A stretch of 64,000 nucleotides of DNA from Escherichia coli O127:H6 str. E2348/69 (GTDB lineage: Bacteria > Pseudomonadota > Gammaproteobacteria > Enterobacterales > Enterobacteriaceae), in the NCBI RefSeq assembly GCF_000026545.1, contig NC_011601.1. One strand, given 5' to 3'. Position numbers: made by a program. Shown here one piece after another: positions 4,901-7,900 of this stretch. How positions within the stretch are numbered: the stretch's first letter is position 1; each line of letters starts with the position of its first letter.

Positions 4901-7900
4901 GGCGCGCTGTCGGCAGCGGGAAACATCTGCTGTAACTCGCTGATTAGTGTCGCGTCATCATCGCCCAGTAATATCGCGCAAATCCCCCGCTCACTTTCTG
5001 CCACCAGGCAACGGCCCAGCTCACAATCAGCCAGCGCGTAACGCACCGCCAGATTTTTGCCACCGTGACGGAATTGTTTAGCCGTCATGCCCAGCGTTTC
5101 GTCGGCTTTGCGGTAGTAACTGCTGCTGTCGGGGAATCCGGCGTTAAGAATAGATGTAGTCACGCTCTCCCCTTTCGCCAACAATTCGCGCAAACGGCGA
5201 GCGCGCCAGGCCTGTTGCCAGGCTTTAGGCGTCATTCCGGTAGTCGCTTTAAACAACCGATGCAAATGAAATGGACTCATCGCCACCTGATCGGCTAAGG
5301 CTTCCAGCGTTACAGGCGTTTCCTGTTCCAGAAGTCGGCAGGCGTGGGTAATTTTATCAAGGCGATGTTGCCGGGGATTGGCTTTGTCTGGCTGACAACG
5401 TTTGCAGGGACGAAAGCCAGCGGCAAGCGCCTCGCTGGCATTTGCGTAGAAGGAGACATTTTCCCGCAAGGCATGTCTGGCTCGGCAAGACGGACGGCAA
5501 AAGATACCCGTGGTGCGCACGGCGAAAACGAATTCGCCGTCGGCATTCGGGTCGCGGGCTAAGACAGATTGCCAGCGTTGATCGTCAGTTAAGCATGTGG
5601 CGTATTTCATAATCAGCTCCCTGGTTAAGGATAGCCTTTAGTCTGCCCGGTCACCATCGCACAAAAACCAACAATCTTGCGCTTTAATTTTTTTCGCTGA
5701 TAAGGAAGCTTTTAAACTGCGGCGACATCCAGGCTTTAAAATTATCGCCCTCTTTGGTGATCATGTAGACCGCCAGTCCTTCCCGGCGAACAACCTCTTT
5801 GGCTTTCTCCGGCCCCAGTACCATTAAGCCAGTATCCCAGGCATCGGCTTCCAGCGCCGTCGGGGCAATCACCGTCACGGATACCAGATTGTGTTCGATA
5901 GGACGCCCGGTTTGCGGATCGATAACATGAGAAAGACGTTTGCCGTCCAGTTCGTAATAGTTACGGTAGCTGCCAGAGGTACTAATCCCATGACCGTTGA
6001 TATCCACCACGGCCTGAACCGCGTTTTCTTTATCGGTTGGTTTTTGAATCGCTACCCGCCACGGCTGGCCTGCACCGTTCATACCACGGCTGTTCAGCGC
6101 GCCGCCCACCGACACCAGATAGCGGGAAATCCCTTCCTGCTCCATCAAGCGTGCCAGGTGATCCGCCGCATAACCTTCGCCGACGGTAGAGAGATCGACA
6201 TATAAATCTGGCAGGTCTTTTTGCAGGTATTGCTGATGCGACTGATTAATGACCGTCAGGTGCTGTAAGCCGGTTTTGGCTTTCATCGCATCGATCTGTT
6301 CCTGGCTCGGAATTTGAACCGGCTGTTGTTCCGGGCCAAAACCCCACAGATTCACCAGCGGCCCGACGGTTATATCCATCGCGCCATCGGTCTTCGCGCC
6401 AATGCGCAGCGAGGTAGTGACGATATCGGCCATCGCTTCACTTACCGGCCACGGCGACAAACTTTGCGAGTCGTTAAAGCGCATCAGCACGGAATCTTTT
6501 TTATAGGTCGAAAGCAGCTGATCGTCAGCGTCCAGCTGGGTCTGAATCTTTTCTTTAAGTTCGGCACTGCGTTTGGCGTCAATGCCCGGGATGCTGGCAC
6601 GCCAGAAGGTACCCATGGTTTTGCCTTCAAGAACGGTAACTTCAGTAGCGTGGGTTTTGGCGGGTTGTGGTTGTTGATCGCAACCAACAAAGAAGAGCGC
6701 GGCAGCCAGCAGTGCCACGCGGGTAAAGCTTATTTCCATACGTGATTATCCTCATGCGAACGGTCGCAAGAGTACACCAAAAAACTGTGTTTGTACGCTG
6801 AAAACAATGAAAAAAGGGCCCGCAGGCCCCTTGTTCGATATCAATCGAGATTAGAACTGGTAAACCAGGCCCAGAGCTACGATGTCATCGGTGTTGATGC
6901 CAGCAGCGCGAGTGAACTGGTTGTCGTCCAGCAGGTTGATTTTGTAGTCAACGTAGGTGGACATGTTTTTGTTGAAGTAGTAGGTCGCACCAACATCAAC
7001 ATATTTCAGCAGATCTTCGTCGTCGTAAGTACGACCAGCGATGTTGGCATTCAGGTTTTTACCTTTGGACTGCAGGTAAGCTACAGAAGGACGCAGACCG
7101 AAGTCGAACTGGTACTGTGCAACCACTTCAAAGTTCTGAGCTTTGTTCGCCCAACCTAAATCACCAGCCAGAGTTGCGTTGTAAGTCTGGGTGTACTGAG
7201 CAGCCAGGTATACATTGTTAGCGTCGTATTTCAGACCACCAGTGTAGGTTTCTGCACGATCGCCGTTACCGATGCCATAATTGTTCTGCTCTGCGGTACG
7301 TTTGGAGCTGGAGATTGCACCACCGAAGCTGAAGCCTTCACCGATGTCATAAGTGATAGAACCACCAACGCCGTCACCGTTCTGTTCCAGAACATCACGA
7401 CCATTGTTGGTCACACCAGTCATACCTTCGCCAGACGGGCTACCGTTTTTACCCTGGTACTGAACAGCAAAGTTCAGACCGTCAACCAGACCGAAGAAGT
7501 CGGTGTTACGGTAGGTCGCGAAACCGTTACCACGCTGCTGCATGAAGTTATCAGAATCGTAGGTATCACCACCGAATTCTGGCAGTACGTCGGTCCAAGA
7601 AGTAACATCGTAAACAACGCCGTAGTTACGACCATAGTCAAAAGAACCAACGTCCTGGAATTTCAGACCAGCGAATGCCACACGGGTCCAGGAACTATTG
7701 TCACTTTCAGGTTCGTTACCTTGAATCTGATATTCCCACTGACCATAACCGGTCAGTTGATCAGTAACCTGAGTTTCACCTTTGAAGCCAAGACGCATGT
7801 AGGTCTTGTCGCCATCTTTAGAGTCGTTATCGGAGAAATAGTGCAGGCCGTCAACTTTACCGTACAGATCTAATTTGTTGCCGTCTTTGTTGTAAATTTC

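What the first reader, a model, noticed from the sequence alone, without database searches (positions are those of the whole stretch)
5678..5694. ada promoter Ada box lies inside the 3' end of apbE
The Ada box (aaattaaagcgca on the minus strand) and the A-rich UP-like stretch overlap the last codons and stop of apbE (stop at 5684-5686), so the regulatory DNA of the adaptive-response operon is embedded in the upstream coding sequence.
Basis: partly seen in the sequence, partly recalled or inferred. Interest (0 to 1): 0.15.

Follow-up and report, generated by a model that had tools for sequence, protein, structure and literature searches.

The report
Known ada promoter overlapping apbE's end
The binding site that switches on the E. 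coli alkylation-repair operon (ada-alkB) does sit on the last codon and stop codon of the upstream gene apbE, but this is the long-characterised ada promoter in its normal place, so the finding is correct and ordinary.

Summary
The window is E. coli E2348/69. On the minus strand, 5694..5677 reads AAAAAAATTAAAGCGCAA. The Ada A box (AAT, 5689-5687) is the last sense codon of apbE (Asn351). The apbE stop (TAA, 5686-5684) forms the first three bases of the 6-nt spacer. The B box (GCAA, 5680-5677) lies just past the stop, 67 nt upstream of the ada ATG. This block is base-for-base identical to the characterised K-12 ada promoter.

The Ada box has been known since 1986, so this is already known. The footprint and transcription start could not be checked here.

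One modest addition came from 80 other Enterobacteriaceae species. All keep apbE-ada synteny. 80 of 81 junctions keep AAT-N6-GCAA in the same register with the apbE stop. The stop is TAA in 81/81. Asn351 is the only one of 53 conserved two-fold-degenerate ApbE codon columns that never uses its synonym, although the neighbouring tail residues vary. The promoter therefore appears to constrain the last codon and stop of the upstream gene. No intrinsic terminator separates apbE from ada.

The parts
5677..5689 (-). Ada-binding site AATTAAAGCGCAA, i.e. A box AAT, a 6-nt spacer, and B box GCAA
   Evidence: Sequence. It is the only match to this pattern within several kb. It is identical in K-12. The motif definition comes from PMC4437013 and PMC4655474. 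It is conserved in register in 80/81 junctions.
5678..5685 (-). Classical 8-mer Ada box AAAGCGCA
   Evidence: Named as the ada-promoter element in PMC3788762 and PMC6505713.
5687..5689 (-). A box AAT, which is also apbE codon 351 (Asn), the last sense codon
   Evidence: AAT in 71/71 species with Asn at this column, with no AAC.
5684..5686 (-). apbE stop codon TAA, which is also the first 3 nt of the Ada-box spacer
   Evidence: TAA in 81/81 loci, whereas the alkB and ada stops vary among TAA, TGA and TAG.
5677..5680 (-). B box GCAA, intergenic, beginning 4 nt after the stop
   Evidence: Invariant in 82/82 sequences.
5688..5694 (-). A7 run inside apbE codons 349-351 (GAA AAA AAT)
   Evidence: Only the proximal A bases (5692-5688) are well conserved, 89-100%. 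An alpha-CTD or UP-like role is inferred from the literature and was not tested.
5663..5692 (-). Conserved ~30-bp block AAAAAT-TAA-A-NN-GCAAG-R-TT-GNN-GGTTTTT, spanning the apbE end and the upstream promoter
   Evidence: Per-column conservation over 82 sequences. Invariant among sampled E. coli lineages.
5640..5645 (-). Inferred -10 hexamer CAGACT (CAGCCT in K-12)
   Evidence: C, A and the final T are 99% conserved and sit at a fixed distance from the Ada block. Indels in other genera fall only downstream of it. This is inference; the transcription start (about 5632) was not mapped here.
5611..5683 (-). 73-bp apbE-ada intergenic region with no predicted intrinsic terminator
   Evidence: Searches found no terminator-like site here. 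The RNA fold z-score is -0.19.
4546..5610 (-). ada CDS, the regulator and methyltransferase driven by this promoter
   Evidence: It matches PDB 1WPK, 1ZGW and 1U8B. The zinc and DNA-contact residues are intact.
3896..4546 (-). alkB CDS, overlapping the ada stop by 1 nt (downstream operon member)
5684..6739 (-). apbE (ftp) CDS, FAD:protein FMN transferase
   Evidence: PF02424. The PDB 2O18 sequence ends ...SEKN.

Best explanation
This is the well-characterised Ada-dependent promoter of the ada-alkB operon. [quoted passage not shown]

The apbE-ada spacer is only 73 bp. As a result, the upstream edge of the site falls on apbE's last sense codon (Asn351 = A box) and its TAA stop (start of the spacer).

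Those six bases serve two functions. The regulatory function appears to be the one that fixes them. The Asn codon never switches to AAC and the stop never switches to TAG or TGA across Enterobacteriaceae. The ApbE tail residues next to them drift freely.

Shown here: the sequence, the overlap, identity to K-12, cross-species invariance, and the presence of the Ada DNA-reading residues. Taken from the literature: Ada binding and activation at this site. Inferred: the -10 hexamer and transcription start positions, and that Ada binding is the cause of the codon and stop invariance.
For: - **Sequence and ORFs:**. The window is E2348/69, annotated apbE / 73 bp / ada / alkB.
- **K-12 comparison:** K-12 has the same layout, and the Ada-box block is identical.
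- **Motif definitions:** PMC3788762, PMC4437013, PMC4655474 and PMC6505713.
- **Functional evidence:** a -100..-1 fragment relative to the ATG, which includes about 27 nt of apbE, is strongly MMS/MNNG-inducible in a reporter (PMC3788762).
- **Cross-species conservation:** 80 species loci all show apbE-ada synteny. The block is 89-100% conserved while flanking third-codon positions and the distal spacer are 40-60%. 80/81 junctions keep AAT-N6-GCAA in register.
- **Codon control:** Asn351 is the only one of 53 conserved two-fold-degenerate columns with a single codon.
- **Stop codon control:** TAA in 81/81, against mixed stops for alkB and ada.
- **ApbE tail:** it varies at the protein level, with 22 different pentapeptides. 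It lies beyond the region alignable to Vibrio ApbE.
- **Ada protein:** C38, R45, R71, F114, H115, R118 and C321 are all present.
- **Other Ada-regulon promoters:** K-12 alkA and aidB carry the same AAT-N6-GCAA.
Against: - No footprint or transcription start data could be retrieved. The primary papers (Teo 1986; Nakabeppu and Sekiguchi 1986; Sakumi and Sekiguchi 1989; Landini and Volkert 1995) are not in the held library. Promoter coordinates relative to +1 therefore rest on my memory and on conservation.
- The consensus promoter scan finds no sigma-70-like -35/-10 pair in the spacer. This is expected for an activator-dependent promoter, but it gives no positive support.
- The species are phylogenetically related, so invariance counts are not independent.
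- ompC also shows a near-invariant last codon and stop (TTC 78/78, TAA 75/78). Terminal invariance can therefore arise for other reasons.
Confidence: 0.93

Rival explanations
1. The overlap is real, but the invariance of AAT-TAA reflects ApbE protein function or translation-termination context, not Ada binding.
For: The terminal Asn is conserved as an amino acid in 80/81 junctions. Last-codon and stop context is known to affect termination efficiency (general knowledge). ompC in the same loci also keeps one last codon and mostly one stop.
Against: - A protein-level constraint would still allow AAC. The seven other conserved Asn columns of ApbE mix AAC and AAT, with a major-codon share of 54-88%.
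- Residues -2 to -5 vary freely, and the tail lies outside the fold shared with Vibrio ApbE.
- Invariance runs without a break from the codon into non-coding DNA (A, then GCAAG, 82/82), which ApbE cannot explain.
- apbE is not a high-codon-bias gene like ompC.
Confidence: 0.12
2. The motif at 5677-5689 is a chance match, and the functional Ada site of this strain lies elsewhere.
For: AAAGCGCA occurs 8 times in the window against 4.5 expected. AAT-N6-GCAA occurs 10 times against 17 expected. A second AAAGCGCAA sits inside the ada 3' end at 4583-4590.
Against: This is the only site that satisfies both motifs. It is identical to the characterised K-12 promoter. It is invariant in sampled E. coli and across 80 species. 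The 4583 copy lacks an A box.
Confidence: 0.02
3. Beyond passive overlap, the arrangement couples the two genes. With no terminator after apbE, read-through from apbE supplies basal ada-alkB mRNA. Alternatively, Ada and RNA polymerase bound at the site block apbE transcription during alkylation stress.
For: There is no terminator-like hairpin and no unusual RNA structure between the apbE stop and the ada ATG. By contrast, ompC has a clear terminator at 6832-6813. Basal Ada is only about 0-2 molecules per cell (PMC10957082, PMC3788762), so a trickle of read-through would matter.
Against: There is no expression evidence here. Rho-dependent termination cannot be excluded. The tiling-array paper does not mention apbE. 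The -100..-1 fragment alone gives inducible expression.
Confidence: 0.2

Closest known systems
E. coli K-12 ada promoter (Ada box AAAGCGCA; A box AAT / B box GCAA, as in structures 1U8B and 1ZGW)
   Same: The same locus and the same gene order. The 13-bp site and the surrounding block of about 38 bp are identical. The 73-bp spacer and the overlap with the apbE (ftp) stop are the same.
   Different: There are three substitutions in the intergenic spacer. TTGCGT becomes TTGTGC just after the T run, and CAGCCT becomes CAGACT. The E2348/69 form is common: 1191 genomes are at least 99% identical over 110 bp.
E. coli aidB promoter (Ada-dependent, same class as ada)
   Same: [quoted passage not shown] It is also pressed against the upstream gene: the A box starts 1 nt after the yjfC stop.
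   Different: The site abuts the upstream stop codon but does not overlap it. Position 9 is A rather than C, which the literature links to roughly 10-fold lower affinity (PMC4437013).
E. coli alkA promoter
   Same: It carries AAT-N6-GCAA (AATATGAAAGCAA).
   Different: It lies in a 133-bp divergent intergenic region with no overlap of any coding sequence. According to the literature it sits closer to the core promoter and is activated by a different mechanism (PMC4437013).
Salmonella ada promoter (GAATTAAAACGCA)
   Same: The same overlap with the apbE AAT-TAA. The two Salmonella loci (L025, L026) read AAGAATTAAAACGCAAG, matching the sequence quoted in PMC3788762.
   Different: Spacer bases differ (AAAACG against AAAGCG). 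The spacer is 80 bp with an insertion downstream of the inferred -10. Salmonella's adaptive response is reported to be weak (PMC3788762).

Membership tests
Ada box / Ada-dependent promoter (ada-aidB type) | A box AAT | tested here: met
   AAT at 5689-5687 on the minus strand.
Ada box / Ada-dependent promoter (ada-aidB type) | B box GCAA exactly 6 nt downstream of the A box | tested here: met
   GCAA at 5680-5677, with spacer TAAAGC. C at position 9, as in the high-affinity ada site (PMC4437013, PMC4655474).
Ada box / Ada-dependent promoter (ada-aidB type) | Classical 8-mer AAAGCGCA of the ada promoter | tested here: met
   5685-5678.
Ada box / Ada-dependent promoter (ada-aidB type) | Sequence identity with the experimentally characterised K-12 ada promoter | tested here: met
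   70 of 73 intergenic bases are identical, as is the whole Ada-box block.
Ada box / Ada-dependent promoter (ada-aidB type) | Site oriented towards, and upstream of, an Ada-regulon gene whose Ada has intact DNA-reading residues | tested here: met
   ada-alkB lie directly downstream. C38, C42, R45, C69, R71, C72, F114, H115, R118 and C321 are present. E-value 2.7e-93 to PDB 1ZGW.
Ada box / Ada-dependent promoter (ada-aidB type) | Site located about -60 to -40 from the transcription start | tested here: inconclusive
   The start was not mapped and the primary papers are not held. With the conservation-inferred -10 (CAGACT, 5645-5640) and a start near 5632, the site falls at -57..-45 and the conserved block at -60..-31. 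This agrees with the published ranges as I recall them.
Ada box / Ada-dependent promoter (ada-aidB type) | Bound by methylated Ada (footprint), with methylation-dependent activation | not testable with these tools
   Literature only. A -100..-1 reporter fragment is inducible (PMC3788762).
UP-like element (RNA polymerase alpha-CTD site) | A/T-rich DNA upstream of -35, contacted by alpha-CTD and stimulating transcription | not testable with these tools
   A/T-rich run AAAAAAATTAAA at 5694-5683. Only the proximal part is conserved. The alpha-CTD contact is recalled from Landini and Volkert 1995 and was not verified.
ApbE/Ftp coding sequence ends at 5684 | In-frame stop at the position of the native C-terminus | tested here: met
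   ORF of 351 aa. RefSeq CDS. The crystallised E. coli ApbE sequence ends ...FLVSEKN.

The most novel reading that the evidence does not exclude
Across Enterobacteriaceae, the Ada A box fixes the C-terminal residue (Asn, always AAT) and the stop codon (always TAA) of an unrelated upstream protein, ApbE. That would be a clean natural case of a transcription-factor site dictating coding sequence. In addition, the lack of a terminator lets apbE read-through provide the few basal Ada molecules that seed the stochastic positive-feedback switch.
Probability: 0.2. Interest if true: 0.3.

Novelty: already known. Interest (0 to 1): 0.1.

Why it matters
It matters little for discovery. The ada promoter is a textbook activator-dependent promoter, and regulatory sites that run into the 3' end of an upstream gene are common in compact bacterial genomes.

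There are two practical points:
- Anyone deleting, tagging or recoding the 3' end of apbE (ftp) will damage the ada promoter and the adaptive response to alkylation.
- The last codon and stop of apbE are a tidy example of non-coding constraint on synonymous sites. This is relevant to dN/dS analyses and to genome-recoding projects that replace stop codons or synonymous codons.

Tried and rejected
- **Primary papers.** I looked for the footprint and transcription-start papers and the Landini-Volkert review by DOI and PMC id. None is held. Promoter coordinates relative to +1 therefore could not be verified.
- **Tiling-array supplement.** I searched the supplement of PMC6505713 for an ada start coordinate and found only a primer table.
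- **Literature on the overlap.** I searched for any mention of apbE together with the ada promoter. Only two unrelated papers came up.
- **Protein search with ApbE.** I ran it to look at C-termini outside Enterobacteriaceae. The 120 listed hits were all close Enterobacteriaceae relatives, so it did not answer the question. The PDB comparison with Vibrio ApbE gave a partial answer instead.
- **Second Ada box.** I considered the AAAGCGCAA at 4583-4590, inside ada and upstream of alkB, as a second Ada box. I rejected it because it has no A box: GCG occupies the AAT position.
- **TAAAGG or TATCCT as the -10.** Cross-species spacing favours CAnnnT, which stays at a fixed distance from the Ada block. 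TAnnCTT shifts with indels. This remains unresolved without a mapped start.
- **Consensus promoter scan.** It finds nothing in the spacer, which is uninformative for a weak, activator-dependent promoter.

Full report
**What is in the sequence**

The window is E. coli E2348/69. A 401-bp query spanning the site is 100% identical to NZ_CP059840.2, and 5421 of 5426 complete E. coli genomes carry the region.

On the minus strand the gene order is ompC (6851-7966), apbE (5684-6739), ada (4546-5610), alkB (3896-4546) and yojI. The minus strand from 5701 reads ATC AGC GAA AAA AAT TAA AGCGCAAGATTGTTGGTTTTTG.

- The apbE stop TAA is at 5686-5684.
- The classical Ada box AAAGCGCA is at 5685-5678.
- The structure-based motif AAT-N6-GCAA is at 5689-5677.
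- The A box AAT is therefore apbE codon 351 (Asn).
- The stop codon supplies the first three spacer bases.
- The B box GCAA begins four bases after the stop.
- The ada ATG follows 73 bp after the stop.

**Is it more than chance?**

Neither motif alone is. AAAGCGCA occurs 8 times in the window against 4.46 +/- 2.13 expected. AAT-N6-GCAA occurs 10 times against about 17 expected.

The evidence is contextual. This is the only AAT-N6-GCAA within several kilobases, and it sits directly upstream of ada. The block is base-for-base the K-12 ada promoter. K-12 differs at only three of the 73 intergenic positions, all downstream of the T run. Four further E. coli lineages sampled across the identity range keep AGCGAAAAAAATTAAAGCGCAAGATTGTTGGTTTTTG unchanged.

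**Link to the characterised promoter**

The papers available here state that ada uses AAAGCGCA (PMC3788762, PMC6505713). They also state that Ada reads an A box (AAT, via R45 and R71) and a B box (GCAA, via F114, H115 and R118) six bases apart. The C just before the B box is said to explain the roughly 10-fold higher affinity of the ada site (PMC4437013, PMC4655474).

The window's Ada carries every one of these residues plus the zinc and methyl-acceptor cysteines. It matches the N-Ada structures 1WPK, 1ZGW and 1U8B at E-values of 1e-89 to 1e-94. K-12 alkA (AATATGAAAGCAA) and aidB (AATGTTTTAGCAA) carry the same composite motif. A reporter driven by positions -100 to -1 relative to the ada ATG is strongly MMS/MNNG-inducible (PMC3788762). 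That fragment necessarily includes about 27 nt of apbE.

The primary footprint and transcription-start papers are not in the library. The statements that methylated Ada protects about -63 to -31, and that -60 to -40 doubles as an alpha-subunit (UP-like) site, rest on my memory of Sakumi and Sekiguchi 1989 and Landini and Volkert 1995.

**Comparative evidence**

A genome scan with Ada returned 80 species of Enterobacteriaceae (Escherichia, Citrobacter, Salmonella, Enterobacter, Klebsiella, Raoultella, Kluyvera, Kosakonia and others) with 65-97% Ada identity. Every locus has apbE immediately upstream. The spacers are 66-83 bp, with one of 227 bp.

Registered on the stop codon, a block AAAAAT-TAA-A-NN-GCAAG-R-TT-GNN-GGTTTTT is 89-100% conserved. 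Third-codon positions just upstream, and the spacer just downstream, are only about 40-60% conserved. 80 of 81 junctions keep AAT-N6-GCAA with AAT as the last apbE codon. The exception, an Enterobacter asburiae locus, has CAT. Most genera have AATTAAAAAGCAAG. The Escherichia form AAAGCGCA is a minority variant, found in 11 of 81.

**Two functions on the same bases**

- In a 72-species ApbE codon alignment, 53 columns hold a conserved amino acid with a two-fold-degenerate codon. Their major-codon share averages 0.74.
- Asn351 is the only one of these with a single codon (AAT 71/71). The seven other conserved Asn columns mix AAC and AAT.
- The apbE stop is TAA in 81/81. In the same loci, alkB uses TAA/TGA/TAG at 62/14/3 and ada at 52/23/5.
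- The neighbouring ApbE tail residues vary, with 22 different C-terminal pentapeptides.
- Homology to Vibrio cholerae ApbE stops five residues before the end.
- The invariance continues without a break into non-coding DNA.

The simplest reading is that Ada-site function, not ApbE function, holds these six bases. Two caveats apply. The species share ancestry, so the counts are not independent. ompC also has a near-invariant last codon and stop, plausibly because of codon bias and its essential terminal Phe.

**Core promoter (inference)**

The consensus scan finds no sigma-70-like pair in the spacer, as expected for a promoter that needs an activator.

In the multi-species alignment, a CAnnnT hexamer (CAGACT at 5645-5640; CAGCCT in K-12) keeps a fixed distance from the Ada block. 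Insertions of 6-10 bp in Citrobacter and Salmonella fall only downstream of it. With that hexamer as the -10, the start would be near 5632. The Ada site would then lie at -57..-45, and the conserved block at -60..-31. This fits the published ranges as I recall them.

A second conserved element, TAnnCTT (TATCCTT at 5633-5627), shifts with the indels. Its role is open.

**Consequences of the layout**

No terminator-like hairpin or unusual RNA structure lies between the apbE stop and the ada ATG. ompC, by contrast, has a clear terminator at 6832-6813. Transcription of apbE therefore either reads into ada or is stopped by Rho. Read-through as a source of the very low basal Ada level is possible but untested.

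**Verdict**

Promoter elements that run into the end of the preceding gene are routine in bacteria. The aidB Ada box likewise starts one base after the yjfC stop.

The only modest addition is the family-wide evidence that the Ada site constrains apbE's last codon and stop. Interest is low.

Noticed in passing
L088 690-706 (E. coli K-12, yjfC-aidB junction): The aidB Ada box AATGTTTTAGCAA begins one base after the yjfC stop codon (TAA G AAT...). A second Ada-dependent promoter is therefore also pressed against the upstream gene's end.
   Followed up: partly
window 4583-4590 (minus strand, inside the ada 3' end, about 40 nt upstream of the alkB start): A second AAAGCGCAA, containing a B box. It has GCG where the A box should be, so it is probably a coding-sequence coincidence (codons RKAQ).
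   Followed up: partly
window 5659-5662 and 5643: E2348/69 differs from K-12 in the ada promoter spacer: TTGCGT becomes TTGTGC right after the T run, and CAGCCT becomes CAGACT in the inferred -10. The window's version of the 110-bp junction is common: 1191 genomes are at least 99% identical to it. Any effect on promoter strength is unknown.
   Followed up: partly
L086 270-300 (E. coli strain 162.2, NZ_CP059929.1): The ada start codon is ATA instead of ATG, and there is a 1-nt deletion three codons later. RefSeq annotates a longer ada (1086 nt) starting inside the promoter region, so this may be an inactivated or re-started ada allele.
   Followed up: no
window 5627-5633 and alignment: A conserved TAnnCTT element (TATCCTT in E. 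coli, TATGCTT or TACACTT elsewhere) lies between the inferred -10 and the Shine-Dalgarno sequence. Its distance from the Ada block varies between genera. It could be an alternative -10 or a 5'-UTR element.
   Followed up: no
window 5508-5522 (minus strand, ada codons ~30-35): A terminator-like hairpin, CCGTGCGCACCACGG followed by GTATCTTTTG, inside the region encoding the Cys38 zinc site. It is probably a by-product of the coding sequence (2 such sites found against 0.9 expected).
   Followed up: no
L024 (Citrobacter sedlakii), apbE-ada spacer: The spacer is 227 bp instead of about 73-83 bp. An insertion of about 150 bp lies between the conserved promoter and the ada ribosome-binding site.
   Followed up: no
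L034 (Enterobacter asburiae INSAq146): This is the only locus where the A box is CAT rather than AAT, so ApbE ends in His. It is a natural A-box variant that could be tested for ada inducibility.
   Followed up: no
L077 (CACSKA010000001.1, labelled Chryseobacterium sp. 18061): The contig carries a typical Enterobacteriaceae apbE-ada junction, nearly identical to L082 (labelled Citrobacter sp. 18056). The species label is probably wrong or the assembly contaminated.
   Followed up: no
window 8300-8393 (+); 12054-12130 and 12168-12244 (-): Rfam matches: MicF sRNA upstream of ompC, as expected, and two tandem naRNA4 (CssrE) repeat-derived elements.
   Followed up: no
window 6813-6832 (minus strand): A strong intrinsic terminator (AAGGGGCCTGCGGGCCCTTT followed by a T run) lies between ompC and apbE. 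apbE therefore needs its own promoter in the ~110-bp ompC-apbE spacer.
   Followed up: no
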